Assembly (NCBI GenBank): GCA_014729085.1
Contig: WJKM01000004.1
Coordinates: forward strand, 68,345-132,344
DNA from: Candidatus Dojkabacteria bacterium
GTDB taxonomy: Bacteria; Patescibacteriota; Dojkabacteria; B142; WJKM01
Direction: 5' to 3'
DNA: 64,000 nucleotides
The notes beneath the pieces were generated by a model. That model made no database searches, had not been told where the DNA came from, and saw only the letters and a list, made by a program, of their open reading frames with translations. Positions 36,138-56,416 of this stretch are shown here, piece by piece; within the stretch, counting starts at the first letter, position 1, and every line of letters begins with the position of its first letter. The translations under genes were made by a program, and so were the position numbers.

Positions 36138-36186
36138 AAAATCGATGAAATGATAAAACTACAAAAGAGGGTCAATTAGAAATCTA

Positions 36187-37823: not shown

Positions 37824-39047
37824 ATAGCCAATATAATTTTGAAATAAAGGATCTGGAAAATCTACTCCATGTTTTCTTCGTAAATCATTGTAATAACCTC
37901 CTTCTTCAAAAAGTTTAGACATTTGCTCACAATCAGATTGATAAACCATCATTGGTAACTCTTGACCGTCCAACATAGCTTCTGTATACGATACTACATA
38001 AGGAAGACTTAAACTATCTGTCATAAGATTTCTCTTTGCATTATAATAAGCAGCTTCACTAACGTCGCTGTAGTCAGAATCAAAATTTCTCATATCATAA
38101 ATTCCATTATCTGTTTCTATAATGTAATCACCATCATCTATCAATTCTTGAAAATAAAGATCTACAACTTCACGAACAAGATTTTCTTTAGCCTCGTAAT
38201 CATAAGCTGCTGGTTCTTCAATATCATACTCATCCATTATTCTTTGAACTTCATTCTCCAAAAGACGGTTTTCTATAAGTTCTTCATATAATACCCCCGA
38301 ACGAGCAATACTTGCTAATTCTGGGACTGTCAAATCTTGAATATCTTCAAATGATATTCCTCTTACTTGCCATAGATTACCTAAATTAGAAACATTAAAA
38401 TTCATTGCCTCATCTGGAAAACTATATCCTATTCGACCTAGGTCATCAGTAACTCTAGGCCCGTATTTGAGCATAGTAAAAATGAACATATCTCGATCAC
38501 TTCCTGAAATATCAAAAACAATTTCGGGTTGTATAATATCAAATCCTTCTGCCTCAAGTAATTGACACCAATTGCATCCGGTTCTATACTGACCTTCAGT
38601 AAAATTCATGAAAATATGATCAAAATCATATTCAACTCCTGATTCTTCTTCAAATATATTAAGTCGAGTACGTAAAGCTTCTGGAGCAAGCATGAAATCC
38701 GCTTCATGTGGATTATTTACATGCCCATAAATTGTCCTTTCTCCAAAAGGAAATTCAAAATGTGCCTGAGGTGATCCTACATCTTGATTTGTGTTACTCA
38801 AATCAAAGGAAGTATATTCTCCCTCTAATTCCAAAAATCCTAGCTCTGGAAGACGATCTAAATTACCATCTCCATTAAAATCCAAATCAAACAAATCTGG
38901 AATACCATCTCCATCCATATCTGGATTTGAAGCTTCTACCGTAGACGTAGGTACAGGAGTAGCTGTAGGATCAATTCCATCAGGATCTGGTACCGGTGTT
39001 TCGCTTGGGTCTACTTCTGTATTAACTGCACCTCCACAACCTGTCAT
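37785..39047 (-). CDS. hypothetical secreted (possibly lipo-)protein with Asp-rich Ca-binding-like N-terminal region
   Basis: N-terminal DMDGDGIPDLFDLDFNGDGNLD. The in-frame upstream sequence encodes KRYGPLLLAVTLMTGC, which is signal-peptide plus lipobox-like, but there is no canonical start codon upstream (see findings). Confidence 0.45.
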   Translation of the reverse strand: MTGCGGAVNTEVDPSETPVPDPDGIDPTATPVPTSTVEASNPDMDGDGIPDLFDLDFNGDGNLDRLPELGFLELEGEYTSFDLSNTNQDVGSPQAHFEFPFGERTIYGHVNNPHEADFMLAPEALRTRLNIFEEESGVEYDFDHIFMNFTEGQYRTGCNWCQLLEAEGFDIIQPEIVFDISGSDRDMFIFTMLKYGPRVTDDLGRIGYSFPDEAMNFNVSNLGNLWQVRGISFEDIQDLTVPELASIARSGVLYEELIENRLLENEVQRIMDEYDIEEPAAYDYEAKENLVREVVDLYFQELIDDGDYIIETDNGIYDMRNFDSDYSDVSEAAYYNAKRNLMTDSLSLPYVVSYTEAMLDGQELPMMVYQSDCEQMSKLFEEGGYYNDLRRKHGVDFPDPLFQNYIGYLDQAGLECVTDN

Positions 39048-39296
39048 TAAAGTGACAGCTAGTAATAGTGGGCCATAACGTTTTAAAAAATTCTCTTATT
39101 CCATAACGAACATTATAAGAAAAAATTTTATCCCGATTATATCAACTCATAGTGTAAGTTTCTAGTATTTTATCTGATTTTTATATGTAGTGAAGAATCT
39201 ATAACGCGTACCAAACAGTTTATGCTAATTAATCCTCAAGGAAGATTTAACCAAGCAAATTATGGCACTGTATATGCAGAAAAATGAATGTTTTAA

Positions 39297-40373
39297 TTAC
39301 TCAACTTTCTTCCACTTAACACATATTGATTTTTGACACTGTCTATACAAAATATCTTCCTCTAAAAATACTTCATGTGTTTCGCCCTCAGAGTCAACCA
39401 TAGTAACATTTCCATTATTGTAGGTATAACTTGTGAATTGAATTGGACCTTCATTTTGGCAGGTTGCTCTATGCCAACAATGCTCCGCAGTTCCATCTTC
39501 TTTAAATAAATAATATGAACCTTCATACATGGTATCTGTCAAATCAGTTGTACCAAGATATTCATAAATCAGCCACTTTCCAACTAGATTAATTTCTGGA
39601 GACTCTTCTGGTTCCTGTGTTTCTTCCACAGGCTCATACTCATTCAAACCAAATTCACTAGCATCTATTGTTGGGGTGGATTCTTGTTGAGTATCTAAAT
39701 CTGAGATAGAGTCTTCTGCATCTCCTAGTAATCTACTCTTAAATTCTTTATCTTCATTAACTATCTCTGCCAATTTTTCTTCTACTTTTTGGTAATCTAC
39801 CTCTCCACGTTTCTCCTGCTCCTCCAGTTCCTTAAGTTCCTTGTATTTAGTCTCTACTTGACTCCCTACTTCCTCCATCTCTTTTCTCATTGCTCTTGCT
39901 TTTGCAATTAATATTGCAATATCTGCATCACTTCCTGTATTCGCCATATTTCTCCACATCTTCATATCCACTCCTTCTTCTTCACCAGCTGAAGCTTTTG
40001 CTGCCATTACTGTATCCTGCACTCCAGATACTACTCCATCCAAATCTTTTGCTCCTGGCACATCCGGAGTTAGCAATCCTGTACCAAGATTAAATGCTTC
40101 CTCGGAAAGTTTTCTATTGTATGAACTTTCATTTAATTGTGATAAAGTCTGTTCTGTCTGACTAAGACTTTCTGCTATCCTAAGCTTTGCACGCTTTCTT
40201 TCCAGATTTGCTTCCTTATCAGCTTGATTTTGTAAAATCGTTGCTTGATTACGCATATCCATAAGCGACTCATCTATAACGCTTTTATCGTGAATTGTCC
40301 CAGCAGTATTTGCTCCTGCTGTGATCAATCCCATTACTGTCATTGTTGTTACTATTGTTGTAAATATTGCCAT
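39297..40373 (-). CDS. hypothetical secreted protein with N-terminal hydrophobic segment and coiled-coil region
   Basis: 358 aa. The N-terminal TM/signal is MAIFTTIVTTMTVMGLITAGA. The central region is heptad-rich and charged. The C-terminal region has 4 Cys. Confidence 0.35.
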   Translation of the reverse strand: MAIFTTIVTTMTVMGLITAGANTAGTIHDKSVIDESLMDMRNQATILQNQADKEANLERKRAKLRIAESLSQTEQTLSQLNESSYNRKLSEEAFNLGTGLLTPDVPGAKDLDGVVSGVQDTVMAAKASAGEEEGVDMKMWRNMANTGSDADIAILIAKARAMRKEMEEVGSQVETKYKELKELEEQEKRGEVDYQKVEEKLAEIVNEDKEFKSRLLGDAEDSISDLDTQQESTPTIDASEFGLNEYEPVEETQEPEESPEINLVGKWLIYEYLGTTDLTDTMYEGSYYLFKEDGTAEHCWHRATCQNEGPIQFTSYTYNNGNVTMVDSEGETHEVFLEEDILYRQCQKSICVKWKKVE

Positions 40374-40397
40374 TTTCGATTGATTAAAAAAGTATAT

Positions 40398-41480
40398 TTA
40401 AGTTAAACCAGGAAAAGTTCCACCCGGCACATAAAACGATTTTAAGATATTAGCTCTGCTCAACTCCTCTGGAATAGAATCAGCTCCTATATCTCCGTTT
40501 GGAAATGATATTTCATAAAACTTTTCATTTAAGTTAAAACCTTCTTCGTCAACGCCTTCACTCGTCATATCCATGTCAATAAATTCGGTATCTGGAGCAT
40601 TCATAACGTTCTCTGTATACTGTTTTCTATTCATGATACTGATTGTAAACAATGGTATTCCTTCTGTTCCACAAATTGAATTCTCCATTGCATCATCGGT
40701 TTTGTAGCAATAATCATAAGAGTCAAGTGCCCAATCAACTTCATCATGTTTTTCAATAATCTTATCTTTATTATTGCCGACTTTAAAAGTAAAACTGTAT
40801 TTCTCGTTCATAAATATATCTTGCTCTTGATCATCGCCTGCGCCTACTTCAGCGTTATTTATCTCAGAAGTAGGTTTCTCAGCCTTTTCAGTGAAAGCTT
40901 TTTGATCTATAGAAACTATAGTACCATCCAACTCAGCGGCATGGAGCCATATACCGTATTCATAGTATTTCGTACCTCCACCTAGTATAGATTCATCGAT
41001 TGTAGTTGTAGCTGAGGGAGCAGTTCCTAATATTCGGTCCAAATCCTCTCTAGTCTCAACATCATAGAAATCCTTAGGTTCAAGGTTAAGACTGTAAACT
41101 TCAACACCATCTACATCATCAAAATAATAATGTTTTCTGCCTATAAATTCACCATCATTAAACGTAAAGATCTCGTCTATATCAACGTATTTCCATACCT
41201 CTATTCGCGTTTGTTCTTCAAATTCATTGTCAATAGTGATATTATATGAATCCGGTAGACCAAATTCATCTATAAATTTTTTCTGATCTTTAGAGTAAAT
41301 ATTTGATACTGTACCTATTTGACCGAGATCTCCAAAATCAAAATTTGGAAATACAAAAATTATGGCAAAACATATACATAAACAAAACACAGAAAAAGCA
41401 GCAAATAATAAAATAATGCCTTTCTTTTTCTTGGAGTCTTTGTCTAAGGGAGTAGGGGACTGAGAGTTTGTGTCCATCAA
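40398..41480 (-). CDS. hypothetical membrane-anchored protein
   Basis: 360 aa with a single N-terminal TM (ILLFAAFSVFCLCICFAIIFVF) after a K/S-rich tail. The rest is acidic and soluble. Confidence 0.35.
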   Translation of the reverse strand: MMDTNSQSPTPLDKDSKKKKGIILLFAAFSVFCLCICFAIIFVFPNFDFGDLGQIGTVSNIYSKDQKKFIDEFGLPDSYNITIDNEFEEQTRIEVWKYVDIDEIFTFNDGEFIGRKHYYFDDVDGVEVYSLNLEPKDFYDVETREDLDRILGTAPSATTTIDESILGGGTKYYEYGIWLHAAELDGTIVSIDQKAFTEKAEKPTSEINNAEVGAGDDQEQDIFMNEKYSFTFKVGNNKDKIIEKHDEVDWALDSYDYCYKTDDAMENSICGTEGIPLFTISIMNRKQYTENVMNAPDTEFIDMDMTSEGVDEEGFNLNEKFYEISFPNGDIGADSIPEELSRANILKSFYVPGGTFPGLT

Positions 41481-41575: not shown

Positions 41576-42511
41576 TTATGGCTGAAGAATATCGTTGCTT
41601 TCATTGTTAATTGAGATGATTACTTGATTTACGGTCGGGAACTGTTTTAAGGTCTGTGAAATTTGTGAGCGAATACTTTCAACCCTGCAGGATCCACCTA
41701 CCTGGTAATCAAGCTTCTCGTTAAAATCAGCATATGCAATATCATTCTCGATTCTAAGGCTCTGCAAGACAACGCCTTCAGGAATTGATGTACTATATCC
41801 ATCATCTACTTCATCTTGTTCTGGGCCTTTCAACAATTCGTTTATAGCAGCTTTACCCATAGCTTCCGTCTTCTTTATCTCTCTTTTCACTGGATAGACT
41901 TTTGAACAATCCAACATGTTTGGATCATTTTTTGTATTATAAAAAAATACTTCTATAATTGAGTTTTCTTGGGGAACGATGGTAAGGGGAATTTCAATTT
42001 TATCATCAAGTTCTCTTTTATCACTAACATTTGATTTATAGAGAGTCATTACGACTTTTTGTTTTGTTTTAAATGTACAGTCAATAGTTGCTTCAAAATC
42101 TACAAACTCATCAGTCATCCATTCCTCATCTGTGTGTGCAGATACTCTCATTAATTCATTACCTTGTTGATCATTTATACCAACTGGAAAACTAGCTTCA
42201 AAAAACCAATAACCAGGAATTTCTCCTTTTACCTCGAACGGGCAACTTACGGAATCATTTGAAAAAGGTGTAATTAGTTTATAAGGAGTTCCTTTTTCTG
42301 AAGTATCCAAGGAATCATCAACTGTAGGAATTGCAGTTGATTGATCTATATAATCGGTTGGAGACACAGCATTATCCAAATCATTGGAGTTCGTTTGGTT
42401 TTTCCTATTGCTATTTTGAAAAGCTAAATAAGCAATAAGAGAAATAGCTGGGATTATTACAATAACTAATAATAGAATAATTGGTAGTTTGTTTTTATTT
42501 TTCATATTCAA
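41576..42511 (-). CDS. membrane-anchored protein with Gmad2-like and GerMN-like domains
   Basis: N-terminal TM. A central region (..SCPFEVKGEIPGYWFFEASFPVGINDQQGNEL..) is Gmad2-like. The C-terminal ...ADFNEKLDYQVGGSCRVESIRSQISQTLKQFPTVNQVIISINN matches the GerMN signature (GGSC ... Q.P.V..V.I.ING). Confidence 0.4.
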   Translation of the reverse strand: MNMKNKNKLPIILLLVIVIIPAISLIAYLAFQNSNRKNQTNSNDLDNAVSPTDYIDQSTAIPTVDDSLDTSEKGTPYKLITPFSNDSVSCPFEVKGEIPGYWFFEASFPVGINDQQGNELMRVSAHTDEEWMTDEFVDFEATIDCTFKTKQKVVMTLYKSNVSDKRELDDKIEIPLTIVPQENSIIEVFFYNTKNDPNMLDCSKVYPVKREIKKTEAMGKAAINELLKGPEQDEVDDGYSTSIPEGVVLQSLRIENDIAYADFNEKLDYQVGGSCRVESIRSQISQTLKQFPTVNQVIISINNESNDILQP

Positions 42512-42803
42512 ATTGATTAAAGAATTAAAATAACATACCTATTTCATTATATAATATATATTCCAGATACCTTAATTCATTCTTCATGAGTTTCCCTAAT
42601 TTAATAAGTGATTATTTTCCGCCAATATAAGTAATCGACTCAATAGCTAATTTGAGTTCATTTGATGTGGATTCTCAAACTTCGACATTAATAAAACCCT
42701 TTAATACAAATTCAGTATCAATTTAACTAATGGTTTTGCTGCACTTCGTTTACAAAGCCAAGACTATCACCTGCCTACCAAAGTACTTTGTACGGCGGGC
42801 AGG

Positions 42804-42876
42804 TTGTCGATCTGGTTTCCGGTTCTCGCCTTTCAATTCATACCAAAAATAAAAAATTCCACCTTTCGGTGGATTT
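42804..42876. repeat. ~73-bp repeat R75, copy 1 (other copies at 46956-47027 and 50106-50168), containing a bidirectional terminator hairpin
   Basis: ttgtcgatc(y)ggtttccggttctcgcctttca(w)ttcataccaaaaataaaaa(a)ttccacc(t)ttcggtggattt. It contains hairpins ccgg-ttt-ccgg and ccacc-tttc-ggtgg, flanked by A-runs and T-runs on both sides. Confidence 0.6.
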
Positions 42877-42935
42877 AATTAGAGGAAGCGACCTGCCTTC
42901 TCCTTCGCAAGTTCAGGATTGTTTTCAATAACAGT

Positions 42936-42966
42936 GGAGCCAAGTACTGGGCAAAGTCCGAACTGA
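42936..42966. repeat. direct repeat S, copy 2 (copy 1 at 46148-46176), flanking the DUF4297-HerA cassette
   Basis: ggagc-NNNN-tactgggcaaagtccgaact, 29/31 identical between the copies. Both copies begin with the same ggagc pentamer that starts the tRNA-Gly-derived core. Confidence 0.6.
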
Positions 42967-42986
42967 GTATTTAAATAAAAATACGC

Positions 42987-44744
42987 TTATGTAACGTTTT
43001 TCCAGTCCTTTGTTACATTTTCAAAATTAACATCTTTCCATTGTTTTTTCCAGATGTCTAAATAATCAATGTCCGGTGATTTTGGTTCTTGGTTGGGCAT
43101 GTGAATTTTAACCAATGAAGGCAAAATGATAGATTCCCCTATCAAAAGTGCTTCCCCAGCTTTCAATGTTGGCAAATAATTGGTTAAATCACCCAATGTA
43201 TCCGGAAGCAATTTCCTAACATAGTTTTGATCATCTGGATTTGTCAGTCTCATGGCAATAAAGTTATTGCATTGAGAAAAAATTGTTTCAGAAATTTCAG
43301 CTGGTCTTTGACTGACTATTCCAAGTGTAATTCCATATTTTCTACCTTCTTTTGCAATTCTTTCAATAGCTGTCCTTGAAGCCCTATACTTTGTTAAACC
43401 ACTTCTTGGAACATATTTGTGAGCTTCTTCAAAGATTAAAAGTAGTGGTGTATCACATTCAGATGAACCATCTAACATTTTTTTGTAATAGTATCCGTAT
43501 TCAAACAGTATTCTTGAAATAAGTGAAACAGTAACACTAAGAACTTCAAAGGGAATTCCAGAAAGATCAAATATTGTTACATTTGCCTTGCTTTTGGTAT
43601 AGCCTATGAATTGTTTTAACACGTCTTCAAGTGTAAGTGAGTCTGCATTTTCAAATAAAAACCTGAGTCTGGGATTATTCCTTGTTATATCAAGTCTTAA
43701 AATAAACCTTTCAAAATGACCCTTGAATGGTCCAGGACCAGCTTTTGTCGCCTTTGTTCTTGACTGTTCACAGAAATCAATATCATCTGTGAAGTATTTA
43801 GGAATTCTATCCGGAATCAATTCTCCACTAATTGATTTGGGTACGTTTTCACCTTCTAACTTCCCGATGACCTCATTATTCACATTTTTTATATATCTTA
43901 TTACTTCATCAATATTAAATCTAAAAGGGGAATCAAAGTAAATATTCTTAGAATCAATATCTGGATTTGTATGTTTTTTGTTTTCTGTAACAGCATATCT
44001 GAACTGTGAAACTTGATTATGTGAATTATCTTCGTTACTTTCAATAAAAAGATCCCCAAGCTCATCACTATCAAAAAGCCAATAGGGAATCTTTATATTT
44101 GAAGAATCAATGATGTTAGCATCAGGGAATGCTTCCCTATATTCTCCGCCTATATCAAAAATCACTATATGAGAATTGTTCAAATCATCATAACTACCAT
44201 TTTTTTCTTGTATTGCCTTTTGAATTATGGAAGCAACTGAATGTGACTTTCCAGATCCAGTTGACCCAACAATTGCAAAATGCTTGTTGAATAGTTTATT
44301 ACCATTCACTGGTACTGCAATAGCATTATTTTGTGCAAGGTCTGAAAACACAAACTTTTCTGAATCTTTCAATTTACATGAATATATCTTGTTAAAATCT
44401 TCATCTGATAATAGTTCTATTCCATTGTTAGGTGGAAGCGGTATCCCATGTGCACCACGTTCAAACTCAACTTTACCTTCTGACAATACCCTATATGATC
44501 CAATCAGTTCAACTTCAATAATAAATTGATTTTCACCCGCAGGCGTATCAGGATCTGTTGAATCTAAGTTTTTAATTTTGTAGTTCTTGATCACACCTAT
44601 AATGAAGTCACTTGAATCACTTTGGAAGGGAATTTTTATATAACTTCCAATATTAAAGTGATTATCAAATTGCTTTGAATCAAGGATTTCAATTGATACT
44701 ATATCCCTTGTTACACCTATTATCTTGAAATTTTCTGGGTCCAT
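42987..44744 (-). CDS. HerA/FtsK-superfamily ATPase (HerA-like helicase, DUF87-type), candidate antiphage defence component
   Basis: 585 aa. Walker A is FAIVGSTGSGKSHSVASII. Walker B is LLLIFEEAHKYVP. Further downstream are GITLGIVSQRPAEIS, a sensor/arginine-finger-like region, and an N-terminal HerA-type barrel. The gene abuts the upstream DUF4297-like gene. Confidence 0.65.
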   Translation of the reverse strand: MDPENFKIIGVTRDIVSIEILDSKQFDNHFNIGSYIKIPFQSDSSDFIIGVIKNYKIKNLDSTDPDTPAGENQFIIEVELIGSYRVLSEGKVEFERGAHGIPLPPNNGIELLSDEDFNKIYSCKLKDSEKFVFSDLAQNNAIAVPVNGNKLFNKHFAIVGSTGSGKSHSVASIIQKAIQEKNGSYDDLNNSHIVIFDIGGEYREAFPDANIIDSSNIKIPYWLFDSDELGDLFIESNEDNSHNQVSQFRYAVTENKKHTNPDIDSKNIYFDSPFRFNIDEVIRYIKNVNNEVIGKLEGENVPKSISGELIPDRIPKYFTDDIDFCEQSRTKATKAGPGPFKGHFERFILRLDITRNNPRLRFLFENADSLTLEDVLKQFIGYTKSKANVTIFDLSGIPFEVLSVTVSLISRILFEYGYYYKKMLDGSSECDTPLLLIFEEAHKYVPRSGLTKYRASRTAIERIAKEGRKYGITLGIVSQRPAEISETIFSQCNNFIAMRLTNPDDQNYVRKLLPDTLGDLTNYLPTLKAGEALLIGESIILPSLVKIHMPNQEPKSPDIDYLDIWKKQWKDVNFENVTKDWKNVT

Positions 44745-44753
44745 TTCGTTAAC

Positions 44754-45938
44754 TTAAAATTTAATTGCTTCATAAATTTGCTTAGTTGACAATCCTTCTA
44801 CACAAACTGATGGCAGTGATTCAAAACGCTCTGGAATGTTATGATCAAATGCATATATCATCTGTGGGGTATTTTGATAGTCAACTATACTATCGAAAGT
44901 AGATTCAGAAATTAGTCTCATTTCAAAAGAAATTCTTTCTAACGTTTCTGTAGCACGTCCATTACTTAAAGTTTTCTTTTCTTTTAGTGGTTTTTCAAAA
45001 AAGATGGAAGAATTGAAACTAATATTTTCATAGCCATCATTAAAATTTACATCATATCCAACTATCACTTTCTTTGCTTCTTCAACATGATCATCTGGTA
45101 CTACAAAGGTAATTGGATTTATGTCAATCTGTGGTTTCTTCCCTTTATAGTCTTCTACTACAGCTAATATAAGTTTCCCCATGTTATATGACGGATCATG
45201 TTTTACTTTTCCCAACATTACTAAATTTTCTTCTTTCCGTATGATTTTGCTAAACTTCTTTTTAATAAATGCCAAATACTTTTCTTCTCCTTTGAATTCT
45301 AGAAATGCTGAGTTAAAAATAATATTTTTACCAGATTTGACGTAATCCATTAGTTCCTTCCTATTTATTACCCGGTCTTCTGGATTTATTGTTTTTGTTA
45401 TTTTTTTTCTAATATAGTCAACTATATTAGAATAATAAAAGATTGCTTCATCAGTATTTGATGCTAAACCGAGTTCTTCATCCTGAAGCTTCCTAATTAC
45501 TTGTTGAAACTGCTGTTGGAAATCCGGTGCAAAATCTAAGACAAACTTCTTTATAAAGTCATTCTTTATTTTTTTACTGAACTGATCTTTCTTATTTCCA
45601 AGAATTTTGTTCAGGTTTTTTAATGAAAGGTGCCTGTCCTCACCTACAAACTTTTCATATCTTTTATATGAAGCAAATGAGGCATAAAGAAAGTAGTTCT
45701 TTTCATTATCATCCCGAAAATTATTCAGTAGATTGATTACAGGGGTTTTGATTTTTGAGGGCGTAAACGCTTGAGTTTCTTGGTATTTTACCTGAATCAC
45801 AAAATTTTTCGATGATATATCTTCAATAATTTCAACCCCAATAGGGTCTGTTTCATTAGTAGATTCAAGAATTTCAAATACAGTTTTGTCTATTTGATAT
45901 TCAAATCCTTTGATTGCATAATATCCACCATCGGTCAC
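44754..45938 (-). CDS. DUF4297-like (Cap4-type PD-(D/E)xK nuclease-like) protein, candidate partner of HerA in a DUF4297-HerA defence system
   Basis: 394 aa, within the 368-411 aa range typical of DUF4297. The N-terminus is GGYYAIKGFEYQIDKTVFEIL...IGVEIIEDISS..FVIQVKYQE (GxxYQ plus E..D...Q.K). The gene is co-oriented with the HerA gene and overlaps it by spacing. Confidence 0.5.
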   Translation of the reverse strand: MTDGGYYAIKGFEYQIDKTVFEILESTNETDPIGVEIIEDISSKNFVIQVKYQETQAFTPSKIKTPVINLLNNFRDDNEKNYFLYASFASYKRYEKFVGEDRHLSLKNLNKILGNKKDQFSKKIKNDFIKKFVLDFAPDFQQQFQQVIRKLQDEELGLASNTDEAIFYYSNIVDYIRKKITKTINPEDRVINRKELMDYVKSGKNIIFNSAFLEFKGEEKYLAFIKKKFSKIIRKEENLVMLGKVKHDPSYNMGKLILAVVEDYKGKKPQIDINPITFVVPDDHVEEAKKVIVGYDVNFNDGYENISFNSSIFFEKPLKEKKTLSNGRATETLERISFEMRLISESTFDSIVDYQNTPQMIYAFDHNIPERFESLPSVCVEGLSTKQIYEAIKF

Positions 45939-46010
45939 GAGTAAGTTCTAAGAATTATGATAAGTAATTATCTCAAAGAATTATTCCAACTTACAAATAA
46001 TATTTGATTT

Positions 46011-46152
46011 GGTTCGAACCAGCCAAAATCACTATCATTACTGGTAGGATGGAAGGTAATCACGGTAGGGGGTATCAAAAATTCGGTTTTAGCTCGAACC
46101 AATATGAATTATATTTGAAAAGGGTTTCGGGGTTTTTATGAGAAATTGGAGC
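46011..46152. repeat. ~140-bp conserved cassette leader, block A copy 1 (copy 2 at 49861-50002)
   Basis: About 85% identical between copies. Each ends in ...gagaaattggagc, immediately 5' (on the minus strand) of the first gene of a module (DUF4297 or the ATPase). It contains tataat and ttcaaa hexamers and a short hairpin attac...gtaat. Confidence 0.6.
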
Positions 46153-46262
46153 ACCCTACTGGGCAAAGTCCGAACTAGATTTTTGGAAATTCACTTTAAT
46201 TCTTTTGTTATAATATTATTAATCACTTTAGTTAACTATTATAATAAATAAACTACTTAATT

Positions 46263-46796
46263 ATGGTACCTACTGTTATTTTTAGTATAATAATATGTTT
46301 TTCGTTATACATATTTATATTCTCCTTACTTTCAAAAATAATATTAATTATTCTCAAACGTGTATTTCAATTATCACCAAAAATAAAAAAAATAATCTCA
46401 ATAATTGATATTATTTTAATTATAATTCTTATTCTGTGTATTCCGGCTATATTTATTTCTATTTTTATGGGTGGATGCTACACATCCTCACTAAAAACTG
46501 ATCAGATTTGTATTAATGAACCTGATAGTTATGGATGCTGGATTTGTGATAACGATGGAAATTATAACTATCAAAAAAATTCAGGTAGTGATATCAAAGG
46601 AACAGATCTTTGTGAGTTGTGTAATAAGGATGAAAACACGGGAATAAAAATTCAGACTGAAATTGCAAATATAACAGGCACAGAACTAACTTGTAATCGA
46701 ATAGTAGGTTCAAAAAATACGAATGATGGCATAGGGGTAGAACAAACTGAAAAAACAATTAAATGCATTTTGATAAAGGGAGAGAAAAATTGTTGA
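46263..46796 (+). CDS. small Cys-rich membrane-anchored hypothetical protein
   Basis: 177 aa. Two N-terminal TM helices are followed by a 100-aa domain with 10 Cys (CINEPDSYGCWICDNDG ... CELCNKDENTG ... CNR ... C..C). It lies between repeat S copy 1 and the tRNA-derived core copy at 46859. Confidence 0.35.
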   Translation: MVPTVIFSIIICFSLYIFIFSLLSKIILIILKRVFQLSPKIKKIISIIDIILIIILILCIPAIFISIFMGGCYTSSLKTDQICINEPDSYGCWICDNDGNYNYQKNSGSDIKGTDLCELCNKDENTGIKIQTEIANITGTELTCNRIVGSKNTNDGIGVEQTEKTIKCILIKGEKNC

Positions 46797-46858
46797 AAAT
46801 TTCGAGCAAATGGTAAGGAGTGTTTTGAATCAGGTTAATTTTATTGGAATTAGAGGGT

Positions 46859-47040
46859 GAGCGATGGACCGGGCTCACGTGGATTTGTAGACAAATCCAG
46901 TATCAATTCAGGTAAGTTCACTTCCTCATTTCATTCGTCGTTCACTAACCCTTCATTGTCGATCCGGTTTCCGGTTCTCGCCTTTCAATTCATACCAAAA
47001 ATAAAAAATTCCACCTTTCGGTGGATTTTTATTTTTGGAG
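46859..47040. repeat. ~175-bp block B, copy 1 (copy 2 at 50003-50170); begins with a tRNA-Gly 3'-end-derived core and ends with R75
   Basis: The first 18 nt, gagcgatggaccgggctc, are the revcomp of the last 18 nt of tRNA-Gly (GAGCCCGGTCCATCGCTC). The remainder is about 95% identical between copies. The ORFs in the track (46857-47105, 49988-50170) are translation artefacts of this repeat. Confidence 0.65.
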
Positions 47041-47189
47041 TCGTGCCTTCGCTAAAGCTTCGGCAGACTCTCGTACTTCAATCAATATTTCAGTACATTC
47101 AGTAATCGACTTGCTATACGAAACAAAATTGAATGTAATGAAATTTTGTGAAGTATGGAGCTCTCTGATAGAGGAAGTTAGAACTAATG

Positions 47190-47870
47190 TTAGATTGATT
47201 CAGTAACTTTGTATATCCCAGTACGACTAAAATCAGGACTAGGATTTAGTATCCATTTACCAAAAGAGACTTTATCTTTATCTGGACAATAATGCTCAAC
47301 ACCAATAGACAGTTCTTTGTCATCATCCACGCTAAGTAGCCAATACGATTTAAATCGATCATTCTTACTTTGGCAATCCACTTGAGGAATCAGGAGATCT
47401 TTATCAATCAGCCAGCCATCAATAAACAGTAAAAGATTCCTATTAAATGGAGAAACTTCTTTATCAATTTTATGACTCAAGGCCTTCTTAACTCCTTTCT
47501 CAAGATCAAGACCATAAAATTTCTTACTATTTTTGTTCTGGACAAAAGCAGATGTCTGCTCCAAAGCGTAAGCAAATCGGTCAATATAAACAAATCCATC
47601 ATCCAACTCTGTAAATCCCTGTTTTCCTTCTTGAAAACCAAATCTCACATCCTTATTATTTAAATTATTCTGTAGGATAACAAAAACGGAGAACACTCCA
47701 AGCATTTCATATAAAGAAAGATTAAAAGGATCAAGCTTTGAAGAATTGTATAAAGATTCAATCTTATTAAAATGATCTTTTAATGAATTAATAAGGGGAG
47801 AATACTGTTTCAAAGTTTTAAATGACCCATATGGGGGACTTTTAATAAATTTCGCCGAATATCCATTCAT
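47190..47870 (-). CDS. hypothetical protein, third gene of the ATPase module
   Basis: 226 aa with no recognisable motifs. It is co-oriented with and 17 nt downstream of the 127-aa gene. Confidence 0.3.
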   Translation of the reverse strand: MNGYSAKFIKSPPYGSFKTLKQYSPLINSLKDHFNKIESLYNSSKLDPFNLSLYEMLGVFSVFVILQNNLNNKDVRFGFQEGKQGFTELDDGFVYIDRFAYALEQTSAFVQNKNSKKFYGLDLEKGVKKALSHKIDKEVSPFNRNLLLFIDGWLIDKDLLIPQVDCQSKNDRFKSYWLLSVDDDKELSIGVEHYCPDKDKVSFGKWILNPSPDFSRTGIYKVTESI

Positions 47871-47887
47871 CCATTCCCTTTGAGATA

Positions 47888-48271
47888 TTAGTTTGGAGAG
47901 CTTCGCTCTCGTACAAATGATTCTATCATATCCTCGATCAGTTTCAGATGACTAAAAAATTTCTCACCCCAGAAGTCACAATCAACTTTCTTAGATACCT
48001 CACTCAATTTTTGTTTCAATTCACTTTCAAGAAACACCCCGGGTTTATAATTGTAAAGCCACAAACAAAACATGACCATCTCAACACTAAGTCTATACTC
48101 CTGGAAATAAAACATATGTATTGAATCAATGATAAAAATTTCAATAACCTCTGGTTCAAATTCTATCTCTTGATTTGGATCAGAAGATCCATGTTTAAAA
48201 TCATTATAATCCTGGTTAACAATATCCTTAAATCGTTTCACTGATGTATTACTTTTTCCATATCTCTTCAT
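47888..48271 (-). CDS. hypothetical small protein, middle gene of the ATPase module
   Basis: 127 aa with no recognisable motifs. Confidence 0.3.
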   Translation of the reverse strand: MKRYGKSNTSVKRFKDIVNQDYNDFKHGSSDPNQEIEFEPEVIEIFIIDSIHMFYFQEYRLSVEMVMFCLWLYNYKPGVFLESELKQKLSEVSKKVDCDFWGEKFFSHLKLIEDMIESFVRERSSPN

Positions 48272-48403
48272 GAAGTGTTCCTTATGATATTGTTTTAATA
48301 CATCCCTATTTAGATGTTCATCAGCTTTTTCAACAAAATATGATAAATGAATAAATAATATTACTGCTAATTACAATATTTAAAAGAAATTTTTATAAAA
48401 AAC

Positions 48404-49795
48404 CTATTTTTTAGTTTTCTTTGATTTTACTATCTTAATCATTTCCGTTATTGATTTTTTAAATTCGTTTTGCGAATATGTCTTATTGGCTGTATTTTCC
48501 GGGTGATGTATTGAGTGTCTTATATAAGTTGATAATGAAACTGATTCGTTACGTTTCTTTTTTTCGTTATACCAAGTTTTAGTTTTTGGTAGTTTTTTTA
48601 AGTCTGTCCTATACTTCCCTTCTATATACCCGTATAACTCATTATGAAATTCTACTGTAGGTATGTCAAACGCGTAATAATTCACTTCTCCCCAAGATGG
48701 GCTCCAAGGAAATAAATTTTCCTGTGTATCTTTGATATTCTTATACTTAATGATGCCCTTACTATCCTTTGAAAGTAAATATATTACTGTATTATCATCT
48801 TGAAGATGTTGCTTGAATAAATATGGAGAATGTGATGCCATAAAAATTTGCCCGTTTTGTTCTCCTTTTTGATCATTAAGTAGTTCTTTGAAATAATTGA
48901 GTAATTGAATTTGAGTTTGTGGATTTAAACTTTTTTCAGGTTCATCTATAGATACTATTACTCCTTCTGAAAATTCTTGATTCTGAAGAACTTGTATAGT
49001 CCTGTGTACCAAACTTTTTTCTCCTGAACTTAGATTTTCTAAACTTGAATCTTTCCCATTCTCTTCAAAATAAACTTGCCAACCATCTTTAGTTTCCCGA
49101 AGTTCTTTAAGATTCTTACCATAGGGAAGAATCTTTTCAAACGCTTTGCGTAATCTATTCCACCTTTTATCAATTACATCTTTAGGTATCTTCTTTTTAG
49201 GATGATCTATAATCCAGTTTCGAAGATCTTGATTATCGTGAAATTGTGTATTTATTAATAGTTGATGATTCCGAGCACCTAATTGACTATCATGGCTCAT
49301 AGCTGTAAAATTTTCTTTATCAAAAGAATCCTTTGTAATGCTAGAAACTTTCTTCAATCTATAATTAGGCTCTGCTCCAGAAAAAATGAATTTAAAATTC
49401 TGAACAAATTCTCCACTAATCCTTCCAAGATCAAGGTCAGTGTATTCATGAGAATTATCGTTGCTGAAAGAAATTTTTCTTCCCTCATTAGACATAATCA
49501 GCTTAATTGTTTTACCTTTAATTCCCTTATGAAACCATCCAACCGTTGTGATATTTTTCAAATTTTCGCTCTCATGCTTATTTAATTGGAATTCATACAT
49601 TCGTATTTCATCGCTAGCCGTAGGTATACCATTGTGCAAGAATCTGTCTATTATGTTTTCAAATAGATATGTCTTTCCAACACCATTATTGCCTATAAGG
49701 AGTACATTATCTGCAATTTTCCCATTAAAATTGAAATCAAGGTCCAGATCTCCAATAACGGGATTATTTTTAACTTCAATTTTTGAAATCTTCAT
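48404..49795 (-). CDS. ABC-type / AAA_15-21-like ATPase (OLD/Gabija-GajA/ABC-3C-type N-terminal ATPase), candidate defence ATPase
   Basis: Walker A is LLIGNNGVGKTY near the N-terminus. The ABC signature is LSSGEKSLVHRT. Walker B is VIVSIDEPEKSLNP. The D/H-loop region is IFMASHSPY. About 130 aa at the C-terminus are unassigned. Confidence 0.6.
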   Translation of the reverse strand: MKISKIEVKNNPVIGDLDLDFNFNGKIADNVLLIGNNGVGKTYLFENIIDRFLHNGIPTASDEIRMYEFQLNKHESENLKNITTVGWFHKGIKGKTIKLIMSNEGRKISFSNDNSHEYTDLDLGRISGEFVQNFKFIFSGAEPNYRLKKVSSITKDSFDKENFTAMSHDSQLGARNHQLLINTQFHDNQDLRNWIIDHPKKKIPKDVIDKRWNRLRKAFEKILPYGKNLKELRETKDGWQVYFEENGKDSSLENLSSGEKSLVHRTIQVLQNQEFSEGVIVSIDEPEKSLNPQTQIQLLNYFKELLNDQKGEQNGQIFMASHSPYLFKQHLQDDNTVIYLLSKDSKGIIKYKNIKDTQENLFPWSPSWGEVNYYAFDIPTVEFHNELYGYIEGKYRTDLKKLPKTKTWYNEKKKRNESVSLSTYIRHSIHHPENTANKTYSQNEFKKSITEMIKIVKSKKTKK

Positions 49796-49860
49796 TTTTT
49801 AAGTATTAAGAGTTGTTTTGATTATAACTTACCTATTTAGAGAAAAACAAAATTAAACTT

Positions 49861-50002
49861 GGCTTGAACCAGCCAGAATCACTATCATTACTGGCAGGAC
49901 GAAAGGTAATCACGGTAGGGGGTATAGGAAATTCAAATCTGACTCGAACTAATATGAATTATATTTGAAGAGGGTTTCGGCGTTTTTATGAGAAATTGGA
50001 GC
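49861..50002. repeat. block A, copy 2 (cassette leader)
   Basis: See copy 1. It abuts the tRNA-derived core at 49998-50016. Confidence 0.6.
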
Positions 50003-50170
50003 GATGGACCGGGCTCACGTGGATTTGTAGACAAATCCAGTATCAATTCAGGTAAGTTCACTTCCTCATTTCATTCGTCGTTCACTAACCCTTCATTGTC
50101 GATCCGGTTTCCGGTTCTCGCCTTTCATTTCATACCAAAAATAAAAATTCCACCTTCCGGTGGATTTTAA
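50003..50170. repeat. block B, copy 2, directly adjacent to the tRNA-Gly 3' end
   Basis: See copy 1. It is followed by aatttttggagc and then the tRNA. Confidence 0.65.
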
Positions 50171-50174
50171 TTTT

Positions 50175-50251
50175 TGGAGCGATGGACCGGGCTCGAACCG
50201 GCGACCTTCACTTTGGCAAAGTGACGTTCTAGCCAACTGAACTACCATCGC
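50175..50251 (-). tRNA. tRNA-Gly (anticodon GCC), CCA encoded
   Basis: The revcomp GCGATGGTAGTTCAGTTGGCTAGAACGTCACTTTGCCAAAGTGAAGGTCGCCGGTTCGAGCCCGGTCCATCGCTCCA folds as a cloverleaf. Acceptor GCGATGG/CCATCGC, anticodon loop TTGCCAA, T-arm GCCGG-TTCGAGC-CCGGT. Confidence 0.85.
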
Positions 50252-52373: not shown

Positions 52374-53720
52374 CTATAGTTTATTAACCTGCCCAATAAA
52401 GAAAATTTCTCCGCTTTCTGCATCCTGTATAACAAAAACAAATGGTTTATCCATAATCATATAAAATGGATCTTCTACTGTTTCTGGAACAGCCTTGAGA
52501 GCCATTTCGACACTAGTTGCAGCAGAGGCCTCAGTTCCTTTCTCATTTATCTCTATAAAAGCCTTATGTCTGACTTCACTAATATATAAATCGTTTTCTT
52601 CGCGCATTAATGAAAAATCAGCACCTGGTGTAAAAGCCACTTCCATACCCATATCCTGAAGCATATTATTCAAACTTTTTGAATAGTCCATTTTAAATCT
52701 CGGCAAAATAATTTTTCCTTTACTTTTTTCGAAAGAATCCGTAAACTCATTGAAACTTTTAATAGAGAAGGAATCGAGAAAAGCATCCATTTCGTCTTTT
52801 GGAAGAACTATAATCATTTCTACTTTTTCTGTTTCACCGTACTTAAGACTAACAACTTGAATTTCTTCATTTTCAAAATACTCAAATTCCTTTTCAAGCT
52901 GCATCATAGGAACTTGAGACTCGGAACCATCAGTATTTTTAAATGATTTATTTTCTGTTAATTCGCTATTAAATTCATACTTCCAAATCCCCTTAAAATA
53001 AACGGCATTAATTAGATACATAATTACATCTGACTCAATAGGGAATTCAACAATTTTCTGGATTTTATTATTCGTATTCTTGTCTACCCAACTATTAATT
53101 AGCTCAACTGCCTGTTCTGAATCAAAGTTAATACTTGCTACTTCAGCATCAAAATTTTCTTGGTTTACATCCAAAAATTTGTTGTTGATTTTATATCCCT
53201 CCCTAATCCAGATCGAGTTGGCAATAGAGATATCAATATCTGCTTGTTTTTGTAAATAATCAATGATTTTTTTGCTTTCCTTGTTTATTTCTTCGGACGT
53301 TAATTGGGTCATAGCCAAAACATCCAAAATGGTTTGTCTTGTCTCTCCTTGAGCTCCATTTAATGGCATAGACAGAGCTAATGAAATACTTAGGGGAGAA
53401 ACAAATATATTCTTATTCTGTGCGGAATCTGTCAATTTTTTAAACAAGTTAAAGGCAAAAGCTGAGTGTGAAGTAATCAGTAAATTTTCATCTAGCGGAG
53501 AAGGCGGTATCATTTCTTCGATATCAATTTCAGAATGAGTCTCAGTTGGCTCAACAGTAACTGTAGGCTTTCCATTTTCTATTTCTATTTGAGAAGATTT
53601 ATAGCGATTAATAAATAATAAACCTAAAAAGAGAAAAAAAAGTAAAACAACAAAGACAGCAATTGCCATTGTAGTGGAAGAATTTCCTTTAGCAGGACTT
53701 TTTTTATCAATAAATTCCAT
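52374..53720 (-). CDS. serpin-family serine protease inhibitor with N-terminal membrane anchor
   Basis: N-terminal TM (MAIAVFVVLLFFLFLGLLFI). Serpin motifs: NIFVSPLSISLALSM, NAVYFKGIWKYEF, a reactive-centre-loop hinge EKGTEASAATSVEM, and C-terminal PFVFVIQD...IFFIGQV. Confidence 0.8.
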   Translation of the reverse strand: MEFIDKKSPAKGNSSTTMAIAVFVVLLFFLFLGLLFINRYKSSQIEIENGKPTVTVEPTETHSEIDIEEMIPPSPLDENLLITSHSAFAFNLFKKLTDSAQNKNIFVSPLSISLALSMPLNGAQGETRQTILDVLAMTQLTSEEINKESKKIIDYLQKQADIDISIANSIWIREGYKINNKFLDVNQENFDAEVASINFDSEQAVELINSWVDKNTNNKIQKIVEFPIESDVIMYLINAVYFKGIWKYEFNSELTENKSFKNTDGSESQVPMMQLEKEFEYFENEEIQVVSLKYGETEKVEMIIVLPKDEMDAFLDSFSIKSFNEFTDSFEKSKGKIILPRFKMDYSKSLNNMLQDMGMEVAFTPGADFSLMREENDLYISEVRHKAFIEINEKGTEASAATSVEMALKAVPETVEDPFYMIMDKPFVFVIQDAESGEIFFIGQVNKL

Positions 53721-56404: not shown

Positions 56405-56416
56405 TTAAAAATACTA

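What the first reader, a model, noticed from the sequence alone, without database searches (positions are those of the whole stretch)
42540..50251. Cassette-like island at tRNA-Gly: tRNA-derived direct repeats, conserved leader blocks and defence-type gene modules
Seen directly in the sequence: the last 18-19 nt of the minus-strand tRNA-Gly (GAGCCCGGTCCATCGCTCC) recur as direct repeats at 49998-50016 and 46859-46876. A second, unrelated ~30-bp direct repeat (ggagc-N4-tactgggcaaagtccgaact) occurs at 46148-46176 and 42936-42966. These repeats partition the region into units. Each unit starts (in the tRNA reading direction) with the same ~140-bp block A and is followed by a gene module. The units end with block B / R75, which contains a bidirectional terminator. 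The layout tRNA-core | B' | core | A'-ATPase module-B | core | Cys gene | S | A-DUF4297-HerA | S | R75 is what serial site-specific integration at a tRNA 3' end would produce, if the circular form carried an attP of the form B-core-A. No integrase is encoded between the repeats. Mobilisation would therefore have to be in trans, or the elements are fossils. It resembles an integron- or tycheposon-like hotspot that collects defence cassettes.
Basis: partly seen in the sequence, partly recalled or inferred. Interest (0 to 1): 0.85.

Follow-up and report, generated by a model that had tools for sequence, protein, structure and literature searches.

The report
Integrase-less defence cassettes stacked at tRNA-Gly
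Next to a glycine tRNA gene of an uncultured Dojkabacteria (CPR) bacterium, two unrelated 3-kb anti-phage gene modules are framed by copies of the tRNA's last 18-20 bases and by shared non-coding blocks, as serial site-specific integration would leave them; this kind of island is known, no recombinase is present, and mobility could not be tested.

Summary
The 3' 18-20 nt of the minus-strand tRNA-Gly(GCC) recur exactly at 49997-50016 and 46859-46876. A second 20-nt repeat (S) occurs at 42945 and 46157.

These blocks frame two unrelated modules: DUF4297-HerA, and a PtuA/AriA-like ATPase with two near-orphan genes. A small Cys-rich ORF lies between them.

New details:
- All sites share TGGAGC, the complement of the tRNA's GCTCCA end.
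- A third, degenerate S site follows the ATPase module.
- An intact T-core-L junction of about 330 bp sits beside the tRNA. It looks like the attP junction between tandem elements.

No integrase or transposase is detectable anywhere in the 64 kb. L, T and S have no match in the rest of the window or in the public collections I could scan. The source is a singleton MAG with no close relatives.

Best reading (about 0.55): tandem, partly nested accretion of att-flanked, integrase-less mini-islands (CIME-like) at tRNA-Gly. They would be mobilised in trans, or are fossils. It is not an integron. Interest is moderate to low: a new member of a known kind.

The parts
50175..50251 (-). tRNA-Gly(GCC), intact. 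Its 3' terminal 20 nt (+ strand TGGAGCGATGGACCGGGCTC, 50175-50194) is core copy c1, the presumed attB.
   Evidence: ARAGORN; Rfam tRNA 66 bits; sequence.
50017..50168 (.). Its R75 terminator hairpin (50149-50164) lies 10 nt from the tRNA 3' end. T1 lies between c1 and c2 with no gene.
   Evidence: 98-99% identical to 46859-47028. Terminator-like on both strands.
49997..50016 (.). Core copy c2: exact 20-nt copy of the tRNA 3' end, joining L1 to T1. The contiguous block L1-c2-T1 is about 330 bp and looks like an attP junction.
49845..49996 (.). It ends at TGGAGC.
   Evidence: 85% identical to 45995-46152. No Rfam hit.
48404..49795 (-). Module 1, gene 1: 463-aa AAA_15/AAA_21 ATPase (PtuA/AriA-like).
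   Evidence: Pfam 3.7e-14 and 4.2e-10; PADLOC PtuA 6.6e-27 and AriAB 5e-21. Closest relatives are only 33-34% identical.
47888..48271 (-). Module 1, gene 2: 127-aa protein of unknown family.
   Evidence: No Pfam, NCBIfam, PADLOC or PHROG hit. Weakest hint is HEPN_Apea at E=0.11.
47190..47870 (-). Module 1, gene 3: 226-aa near-orphan protein.
   Evidence: Only 2 homologs (29-31% identity) among 1.84 billion representatives. No PDB or Pfam match.
47156..47185 (.). S'': degenerate S-type site (TGGAGC tctc TGATAGAGGAAGTTAGAACT), 4 nt beyond the stop of the 226-aa gene. S occupies the same relative position after HerA.
   Evidence: 12 of 20 matches to the S arm after an exact TGGAGC. It is the best of the 32 other TGGAGC sites; per-site P is about 1e-3.
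46877..47028 (.).
46859..46876 (.). Core copy c3: exact 18-nt copy of the tRNA 3' fragment. The CCA complement is altered (GTG instead of TGG).
46263..46796 (+). 177-aa ORF between S' and c3, on the opposite strand. It has a hydrophobic N-terminus and a Cys-rich C-terminal half. No family assigned.
   Evidence: It contains a 26-nt R75-like stretch at 46365-46390 (88%).
46147..46176 (.). S': TGGAGC accc TACTGGGCAAAGTCCGAACT. The TGGAGC is also the last 6 nt of L2.
45995..46146 (.).
44754..45938 (-). Module 2, gene 1: DUF4297 (Cap4-like nuclease partner of HerA).
   Evidence: PADLOC 1.9e-28; NCBIfam DUF4297_antiphage 3.9e-37; PDB 8xav, 9c1m and 8ziq.
42987..44744 (-). Module 2, gene 2: anti-phage-type HerA ATPase.
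   Evidence: Pfam DUF87 6.2e-33; PADLOC HerA 1.5e-204; NCBIfam HerA_antiphage_2 1.4e-211. Closest relative is 73% identical.
42935..42964 (.). S: TGGAGC caag TACTGGGCAAAGTCCGAACT, 22 nt beyond the HerA stop.
42700..42876 (.). T3. R75 (42804-42876) has 1 mismatch in 73 nt to T2. The left part is diverged, carries an inserted hairpin and has no core. It abuts the chromosomal Germane/Gmad2 gene (41576-42511, minus strand).
   Evidence: Pfam for the flanking gene.

Best explanation
The region is a small genomic island built at the 3' end of tRNA-Gly(GCC) by repeated site-specific integration (tandem, partly nested accretion) of short elements from one family.

**Proposed element structure.** In the tRNA reading direction each element reads core | L | one defence operon | (S-type site, spacer) | T | core. 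The circular form would therefore carry an attP of about 330 bp, T-core-L.

**Proposed history.**
- The ATPase element (46877-49996) is bounded by exact core copies c3 and c2.
- The block T1-c2-L1 next to the tRNA is the attP-like junction expected between two tandem elements. Its proximal partner has been reduced to T1.
- The DUF4297-HerA unit (42965-46146) is bounded by a second site type, S. S shares with the core the TGGAGC motif (complement of the tRNA's GCTCCA end) and a weaker tRNA-like arm.
- The Cys-rich ORF lies between an S site and a core.

**Mobility.** None of the units encodes a recombinase. They are therefore cis/trans-mobilisable elements (CIME-like) served by a tyrosine integrase encoded elsewhere, or immobilised remnants.

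**Shown:** the repeats, their exactness and orientation, the unrelated cargo, the defence annotation, and the absence of a recombinase in 64 kb.

**Inferred:** that recombination at these sites made the array, the role of L and T as att arms, the order of events, and any present mobility.
For: 1. There are three exact, same-orientation copies of the tRNA 3' 18-mer, with about 0.01 expected. The copied part starts in the T-loop and runs to the 3' end. A 3' tDNA fragment is the common case among mapped tDNA islands: 3760 of 3919 islands carry one, and 1836 have a T-stem-region attP (PMC4383910).
2. The same L and T blocks frame gene modules with no detectable similarity to each other (BLASTP). 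A plain segmental duplication is therefore excluded.
3. L1 and L2 are only 85% identical while the cargo differs. They look like diverged family members, not a fresh in-place copy.
4. L-core-T is contiguous at 49845-50168 and has the size of a tyrosine-recombinase attP (own knowledge: lambda attP is about 240 bp).
5. TGGAGC on the + strand occurs 4 times in the 1720 nt of non-coding island DNA, against 0.48 expected (P = 0.0016). Every occurrence sits at a block boundary.
6. A third, degenerate S site lies directly after module 1, just as S lies after module 2.
7. L and T occur nowhere else in the 64 kb, so they are not a generic interspersed repeat.
8. An independent parallel exists. The best homolog of the ATPase (33% identity, ENA contig L019) also lies just downstream of a tRNA-Gly(gcc). 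That tRNA is followed by a terminator, about 200 nt, and a displaced copy of its own 3' end (16-mer search with up to 3 mismatches: 0.02 expected) before the ATPase gene.
9. Tandem arrays separated by partial tRNA/tmRNA copies, including units without an integration module, are documented:
   - tycheposons (bioRxiv 10.1101/2020.12.28.424599);
   - Dehalococcoides ssrA islands, 15 of 31 without an integration module (PMC3146451);
   - CIME accretion (PMC5704250).
Against: - No integrase, excisionase or transposase domain was found in any ORF of 120 aa or more in the window.
- No second locus, empty site or circular junction could be found. The L, T and S patterns are absent from IMG/VR. The tRNA core is also absent there. 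The one L 20-mer scanned in JGI metagenomes gave only chance hits. Phage records match only the tRNA.
- GC content of the island (0.32) equals that of the genome (0.317), so there is no compositional sign of recent import.
- The simple model needs extra events: a deletion to leave T1 alone between tRNA and c2, a second site type (S), and loss of the core at T3.
- T follows each tRNA-like GCTCCA end (8, 128 and 58 nt away). This could also mean that T is the native tRNA downstream flank that was copied.
- The two S copies differ in the 4 nt next to TGGAGC.
- Only one genome, a MAG, is available.
Confidence: 0.55

Rival explanations
1. Homologous-recombination hotspot. T (tRNA downstream flank plus terminator) and L are conserved intergenic sequences of the locus. 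A unit was duplicated in tandem by unequal crossing-over. The cargo between the conserved blocks was then swapped by homologous recombination with DNA taken up from related strains. The core copies are simply part of the duplicated T block. No site-specific recombinase is involved.
For: - c2 and c3 are embedded in a 170-nt repeat that is 98-99% identical, with 0 differences in 129 nt. They need not be independent integration scars.
- R75 is kept at 96-99% in all three copies while the rest of T3 has diverged. This suggests gene conversion or selection.
- No recombinase is present in 64 kb.
- GC content of the island equals that of the genome.
Against: - The first displaced copy of a tRNA 3' end still needs an integration-type event to arise.
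- The exact repeat stops precisely at the tRNA-derived 18-20 nt on the L side.
- The S repeats bound module 2 without any T homology.
- TGGAGC is enriched at every boundary (P = 0.0016).
- L019 shows a displaced tRNA-Gly fragment with unrelated flanks.
- Cargo swapping still presupposes a pool of L...T-flanked cassettes.
Confidence: 0.22
2. Regulatory or RNA-gene duplication. L-core-T would be a functional unit of its own. One possibility is a ~175-nt + strand RNA that starts near TGGAGC, is antisense to the tRNA-Gly 3' end and ends at the R75 terminator. Another is a shared leader and terminator pair for defence operons. Under this reading it was copied together with neighbouring operons.
For: - R75 is a good bidirectional terminator in all copies.
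- T folds better than shuffled sequence (z = -2.3 to -2.5).
- The RNAalifold model for + strand L keeps all 35 pairs, 8 of them through one-sided G-U changes.
- On the + strand, L2 is followed by the Cys-rich ORF and then T2, as if L supplied a promoter and T a terminator.
Against: - No Rfam family matches, even at E up to 5.
- No consensus promoter was called at the 3' end of L.
- The L-core-T fold has z of only -1.8 to -1.9 on either strand.
- With two sequences the pair counts are uninformative, and the minus strand does equally well.
- This reading does not explain the S repeats or why the modules differ.
Confidence: 0.1
3. Assembly artefact. In the metagenome, strains carry alternative cassettes at one hotspot flanked by the same T and L. 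The assembler threaded the alleles one after the other through the shared repeats.
For: - The source is a MAG contig.
- T1 and T2 share 129 identical bases, which is as long as typical maximum k-mers.
- Alternative cassettes at one hotspot are common.
Against: - The three T copies and two L copies are distinct sequences, and each junction is unique.
- T2 combines a T1-specific base (46965) and a non-T1 base (46988) only 23 nt apart, so it exists as a real molecule for any k of 25 or more.
- The layout is internally consistent.
Confidence: 0.06

Closest known systems
Cis-mobilisable elements (CIMEs) and tandem accretion at the 3' end of tRNA or other genes (ICESt1-type elements of streptococci; PMC5704250)
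   Same: The units are flanked by attL/attR direct repeats derived from the 3' end of the target gene. They lack integration and transfer genes, lie in tandem, and the junction between neighbours looks like an attP.
   Different: No related autonomous element or integrase has been identified. The units are very small (3.1-3.2 kb, one operon each). A second site type (S) is nested in the array. The host is a CPR bacterium, and mobility is untested.
Dehalococcoides ssrA-specific genomic islands (PMC3146451)
   Same: A series of tandem islands lies downstream of a small RNA gene. Each is bounded by a 20-bp direct repeat of its 3' end, with conserved sequence around the repeats. About half (15 of 31) have no integration module and were suggested to be CIMEs.
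   Different: Those islands target tmRNA and use a serine recombinase (DsiB) present in 16 islands. They are larger and carry rdhA cargo. Here the target is tRNA-Gly and no recombinase of any family is visible.
Tycheposons of Prochlorococcus (bioRxiv 10.1101/2020.12.28.424599)
   Same: Both integrate at tRNA genes, form tandem elements separated only by a partial tRNA copy, and leave remnants and extra partial tRNAs in islands. Both occur in streamlined genomes and carry adaptive or defence cargo.
   Different: Tycheposons are defined by their tyrosine recombinase and replication modules, which are absent here. There is no sequence relation, and the phylum is different.
Integron gene cassettes
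   Same: Both show a serial array of small single-function cassettes without their own recombinase, mostly in one orientation, next to a fixed insertion point.
   Different: There is no IntI, attI or Pc. The junctions are not attC hairpins (single-stranded DNA fold of L has z about 0). The recombination sites derive from a tRNA 3' end. Each cassette brings about 200 nt of upstream sequence.
DUF4297-HerA anti-phage system (PMC11291478; PDB 8xav)
   Same: The two-gene operon has DUF4297 directly upstream of HerA, and both match the defence-specific models.
   Different: This is only the cargo of one unit. The scores are below the NCBIfam equivalog cut-offs (704 bits against a cut-off of 850; 128 against 300). 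Function was not tested.

Membership tests
tDNA-integrated genomic island (Islander definition) | Intact tRNA gene plus a displaced fragment of the same tRNA in direct orientation at the far end of the island. | tested here: met
   tRNA-Gly is intact. Exact 18-20-nt 3' fragments lie at 49997 and 46859 on the same strand.
tDNA-integrated genomic island (Islander definition) | Tyrosine integrase gene inside the island. | tested here: not met
   No Phage_integrase, Resolvase or DDE domain was found in any island ORF or in any ORF of 120 aa or more in the window.
tDNA-integrated genomic island (Islander definition) | The displaced fragment is a 3' fragment that starts in the T-stem/loop region. 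| tested here: met
   The repeat is GAGC (end of the T-loop) + CCGGT + CCATCGC + T + CCA, read directly from the sequence. This class is the most common.
CIME (cis-mobilisable element) | Flanked by attL and attR sites but devoid of integration and transfer genes. | tested here: met
   c2 and c3 flank the ATPase unit. S' and S flank the DUF4297-HerA unit. No recombinase was found.
CIME (cis-mobilisable element) | A related autonomous element with the same att specificity exists and can co-excise or mobilise it. | not testable with these tools
   Only 64 kb of a 132.9-kb contig is available. No relative carrying L, T, S or the core was found in the collections scanned.
Integron | IntI-type tyrosine recombinase with adjacent attI and Pc at the head of the array. 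| tested here: not met
   No integrase domain was found in the window. The array starts at a tRNA gene.
Integron | Cassettes separated by attC sites (imperfect palindromes that fold as single-stranded hairpins). | tested here: not met
   Single-stranded DNA folding of L1 and L2 gives z between -0.6 and +0.3 on both strands. The junctions are tRNA-derived direct repeats.
Tycheposon | Flanking by a full and a partial tRNA; tandem elements separated by a partial tRNA. | tested here: met
   description of the family.
Tycheposon | Family-specific tyrosine recombinase with a replication or PICI-like module. | tested here: not met
   No such genes were found in the island or the window.
DUF4297-HerA defence system | Adjacent genes for a DUF4297 nuclease and a defence-type HerA ATPase. 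| tested here: met
   PADLOC HerA 1.5e-204 and DUF4297 1.9e-28; NCBIfam 1.4e-211 and 3.9e-37; PDB DUF4297 chains. The genes are 9 nt apart.
Septu / PARIS / AbiL-type ATPase-nuclease systems | AAA_15/AAA_21 ATPase together with its cognate nuclease partner (PtuB HNH, AriB DUF4435/TOPRIM or AbiLii). | tested here: inconclusive
   The ATPase matches PtuA at 6.6e-27 and AriAB at 5e-21. The 127-aa and 226-aa partners match no family. The 226-aa protein has only 2 homologs.

The most novel reading that the evidence does not exclude
CPR bacteria (here Dojkabacteria) may possess a cassette-capture system that works like an integron but uses tRNA-derived sites. In this reading, roughly 3-kb single-operon defence cassettes carry a ~330-bp T-core-L recombination region and no recombinase. 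A tyrosine integrase encoded elsewhere in the genome, or on a phage or plasmid, inserts them serially at the GCTCCA end of tRNA-Gly and at its displaced copies (core and S-type sites). This would give a minimal genome a swappable defence array.
Probability: 0.15. Interest if true: 0.7.

Novelty: new member of a known kind. Interest (0 to 1): 0.4.

Why it matters
If the reading is right, an ultra-small CPR genome acquires and stacks anti-phage systems by the classic tRNA-targeted integration route. The units are stripped to one operon plus att arms and depend on a recombinase supplied in trans. This would give a concrete, testable handle (the T-core-L junction and the TGGAGC-containing sites) for studying gene flow and defence turnover in Patescibacteria, where mobile elements are poorly characterised. 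It also flags an uncharacterised three-gene candidate defence module: a PtuA/AriA-like ATPase with two near-orphan proteins. If the units are only fossils, this is an ordinary small tRNA-linked defence island.

Tried and rejected
**Exact-protein look-ups.** Look-ups of the window's own genes found nothing on record.

**Synteny search in GTDB genomes.** The search used the patatin flank gene. It found only relatives at 27-43% identity, in other phyla.

**Block searches in public collections.**
- IMG/VR exact-pattern scans for two L segments, the T 22-mer, the S 20-mer and the core 18-mer gave nothing.
- The L 20-mer in JGI metagenomes gave two chance hits in 60-65% GC contigs.
- blastn against phage records matched only the tRNA.

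**Suspected extra remnants, none significant against shuffled and genomic controls.**
- An L remnant left of T3: 38 of 1000 shuffles reach the score for L1, and there is no signal for L2.
- An L remnant before c3.
- Homology between the two spacers.

**T2 as a T1/T3 mosaic.** Support is weak (Fisher P = 0.03). R75 is simply conserved in all three copies.

**S as a real tRNA 3' half.** It cannot form a canonical T-arm (manual parsing). It only resembles the tRNA-Gly end: TGGAGC-N4-xACyGGGC...GAAC.

**L or T as a known RNA.** There is no Rfam hit. Folding z-scores are unremarkable and two-sequence covariation is uninformative.

**attC-like folding of L.** Rejected.

**Neighbourhoods of cargo homologs.**
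- HerA homologs (L010-L013): no tRNA and no L or T.
- ATPase homologs (L014-L018): no tRNA; they sit in methyltransferase and serine-recombinase contexts.
- Only L019 shows the tRNA-Gly parallel.

**Not attempted.** Structure prediction of the orphan proteins was not run, because no admissible alignment could be built.

Full report
**1. Source and setting**

Three window proteins are 100% identical to NCBI proteins of a "Candidatus Dojkabacteria bacterium" (CPR/Patescibacteria) on a 132,905-bp contig. The window has 31.7% GC and the island 32.0%.

The island lies between two chromosomal landmarks. On the left is a Germane/Gmad2 gene (41576-42511, minus strand). On the right is a divergent tRNA-Gly(GCC) / tRNA-Val pair, followed by patatin and DUF362 genes.

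**2.

- *Core.* The last 18 nt of the tRNA (+ strand GAGCGATGGACCGGGCTC) occur exactly three times in 64 kb, at 46859, 49999 and inside the tRNA. About 0.01 matches are expected by chance. With the preceding TG, the copy at 49997 is a 20-nt exact repeat. It spans the end of the T-loop, the 3' T-stem, the acceptor strand, the discriminator and CCA.
- *S.* The 20-mer TACTGGGCAAAGTCCGAACT occurs exactly twice.
There are no differences in the first 129 nt and three (including one indel) in the last 73.
- *R75.* The 73-nt terminator part recurs at 42804-42876 with one mismatch. The rest of that third copy (T3) is diverged, carries an inserted hairpin and has no core.
- *Terminator.* R75 scores as a terminator on both strands in all three copies.
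- *Distribution.* L, T and S occur nowhere else in the window.

**3. Map in the tRNA reading direction (minus strand)**

| Order | Feature | Coordinates |
|---|---|---|
| 1 | tRNA-Gly, including core c1 | 50251-50175 |
| 2 | T1 | 50168-50017 |
| 3 | core c2 | 50016-49997 |
| 4 | L1 | 49996-49845 |
| 5 | ATPase, 127-aa and 226-aa genes | 49795-47190 |
| 6 | S'' | 47185-47156 |
| 7 | 127-nt spacer | 47155-47029 |
| 8 | T2 | 47028-46877 |
| 9 | core c3 | 46876-46859 |
| 10 | Cys-rich ORF, opposite strand | 46796-46263 |
| 11 | S' | 46176-46147 |
| 12 | L2 | 46146-45995 |
| 13 | DUF4297 and HerA | 45938-42987 |
| 14 | S | 42964-42935 |
| 15 | 58-nt spacer | 42934-42877 |
| 16 | T3 | 42876 to about 42700 |
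| 17 | Germane gene | 42511-41576 |

**4. New details**

- *A shared hexamer.* Every site carries TGGAGC on the + strand, the complement of the tRNA's terminal GCTCCA. Four such hexamers fall in the 1720 nt of non-coding island DNA, where 0.48 are expected (P = 0.0016), and a fifth is in the tRNA. All five lie at block boundaries.
- *A third S-type site.* S'' (TGGAGC tctc TGATAGAGGAAGTTAGAACT) lies 4 nt after the last gene of module 1, just as S lies 22 nt after HerA. It matches the S arm at 12 of 20 positions. That is the best of the 32 other TGGAGC sites in the window, with a per-site chance of about 1e-3.
- *S resembles the tRNA end.* By eye the pattern is TGGAGC-N4-xACyGGGC...TC(C)GAAC. 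It cannot form a canonical T-arm, so I treat it as a diverged att-type site and not as a fragment of another tRNA (inference).
- *An intact junction.* L1-c2-T1 is one contiguous ~330-bp block beside the tRNA. In the second copy, L2 and c3-T2 are separated by exactly the S'-to-Cys-ORF segment (46153-46858). That segment begins right after the TGGAGC that ends L2.

**5. Cargo**

- *Module 2* is a DUF4297-HerA anti-phage system. Scores are PADLOC HerA 1.5e-204 and DUF4297 1.9e-28; NCBIfam anti-phage HerA 1.4e-211 and DUF4297_antiphage 3.9e-37, both below the equivalog cut-offs; and solved DUF4297 chains 8xav, 9c1m and 8ziq. The system is biochemically characterised elsewhere (PMC11291478).
- *Module 1* starts with an AAA_15/AAA_21 ATPase that resembles PtuA (6.6e-27) and AriA/AriAB. 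Its two partners match no family. The 226-aa protein has only two homologs among 1.84 billion representatives. Module 1 is therefore only a candidate defence system.
- *The Cys-rich ORF* has no assignable family.
- The two modules share no protein similarity.
- The nearest database relatives are 73% identical for HerA and 33-34% for the ATPase. There is no sign of very recent exchange with any sequenced genome.

**6. No recombinase**

Pfam scans of all ORFs of 120 aa or more in the 64 kb found no integrase, resolvase, transposase or excisionase. PADLOC, NCBIfam and PHROG scans of the island ORFs agree.

**7. Comparative evidence could not be obtained**

- The patatin flank gene has one 89% relative, on a 1-kb contig. 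The next relative is 46% identical.
- The GTDB scan gave only distant phyla.
- Exact-pattern scans for L, T, S and the core in IMG/VR found nothing.
- Phage records match only the tRNA.

One independent parallel did emerge. On ENA contig L019, the best homolog of the ATPase lies just downstream of another tRNA-Gly(gcc). That tRNA is followed by a terminator, about 200 nt, and a displaced copy of its own 3' end (CTTACCCGCTCCA), and then by the ATPase and a 227-aa gene. A 16-mer search allowing up to 3 mismatches found the second copy, with 0.02 expected by chance. There is no DNA similarity to L or T. The layout tRNA | short block | core copy | leader | ATPase is thus seen twice with unrelated sequences.

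**8. Interpretation**

- *Support for site-specific integration.* The regenerated tRNA plus displaced 3' fragments in direct orientation is the standard footprint of tyrosine-integrase integration at tDNAs (PMC4383910).
- *Why not a plain duplication.* Unrelated cargo between diverged copies of the same arms excludes a simple duplication. It implies a family of units sharing L and T.
- *The economical model.* Tandem accretion of elements with attP = T-core-L fits best. The ATPase element lies between c2 and c3. T1-c2-L1 is the inter-element junction. The proximal element has lost everything but T1; a short TTTTTGGAG repeat that follows R75 in both T1 and T2 could have mediated that deletion (inference).
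- *The S sites.* The DUF4297-HerA unit and the Cys segment are bounded by S-type sites that share only TGGAGC and a weak arm with the core. This suggests a nested series of events, possibly with strand exchange in the GCTCCA region (inference).
- *Limits.* The exact order of events cannot be reconstructed uniquely. In particular, T follows each GCTCCA-type end at 8, 127 and 58 nt. T may therefore originally have been the native tRNA downstream flank.
- *Mobility.* Units without recombinase genes but with both att sites are what the literature calls CIMEs. They move only when a related integrase-bearing element is present (PMC5704250). Comparable integrase-less units occur in the Dehalococcoides ssrA arrays (PMC3146451) and as remnants in tycheposon islands.

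**9. Rivals**

- *Homologous recombination in conserved flanks plus unequal crossing-over (0.22).* It fits the near-identity of the c-T copies, the conserved R75 and the lack of a recombinase. It does not create tRNA-end copies, S repeats or the TGGAGC pattern.
- *A functional L-core-T RNA or regulatory unit (0.10).* There is no Rfam, promoter or folding support.
- *An assembly chimera of alternative alleles (0.06).* It cannot be excluded without reads. It is unlikely because every copy and junction is distinct.

**10. Verdict**

The island is best filed as a new member of the known class of tRNA-linked, tandemly accreted, integrase-less islands carrying defence genes. It is notable for its miniature single-operon units, its second site type and its CPR host. 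It is not an integron, and membership in the tycheposon family fails on that family's defining genes. Interest is 0.4. The more novel reading, a trans-acting cassette-capture system in CPR bacteria, is not excluded (about 0.15).

Noticed in passing
L019:1-2650 (ENA ERZ27249449 k141_874459): The best homolog of the island ATPase (33% identity) sits right after a tRNA-Gly(gcc) at 67-139. That tRNA is followed by a terminator, a 55%-GC stretch of about 160 nt, and a displaced copy of its own 3' end (344-356, which carries CCA where the gene itself reads CAC). The ATPase and an unrelated 227-aa gene come next.
   Followed up: partly
window 35918-36142 and 37606-37825 (upstream of tRNA-Pro 35490-35565): A 225-nt direct repeat (85-90% identity) covers the 5' end of a Pro/Gln-rich 129-aa ORF and its upstream region. 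It is unrelated to L, T or S. Five consecutive minus-strand ORFs between tRNA-Pro and the Germane gene (36187-41480) have no Pfam match.
   Followed up: partly
window 21861-23309: Two adjacent pilin-like genes (N_methyl motif, 185 and 153 aa) lie inside a tandem duplication of about 710 bp (76-83% identity, 22191-22596 against 22901-23309).
   Followed up: no
window 52374-53720 (-): A full-length serpin (Pfam Serpin 1.8e-109) is encoded between DUF362 and tRNA-Phe in this CPR genome.
   Followed up: no
window 55037-57778 (-): Two adjacent paralogous genes of about 455 aa have faint hexokinase-like hits. An internal 168-nt repeat (71% identity, 55411-55578 against 56791-56958) links them.
   Followed up: no
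window 47190-47870 (-): The 226-aa protein of module 1 is nearly an orphan. Only two homologs (29-31% identity, 224-225 aa) exist among 1.84 billion cluster representatives, and it has no Pfam or PDB match.
   Followed up: partly
window 46365-46390: A 26-nt stretch inside the N-terminal hydrophobic part of the Cys-rich ORF is 88% identical to the A-rich part of R75. It may be a decayed fourth T copy or an AT-rich coincidence. If it is real, the ORF's true start may be the internal Met at about 46467.
   Followed up: partly
window 47029-47045, 50169-50180: R75 is followed by TTTTTGGAG in both T2 and T1. In T1 this is the tRNA 3' end. In T2 it is followed by a GC-rich hairpin (47036-47063). This hints that T2 was once adjacent to a tRNA-like end.
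   Followed up: no
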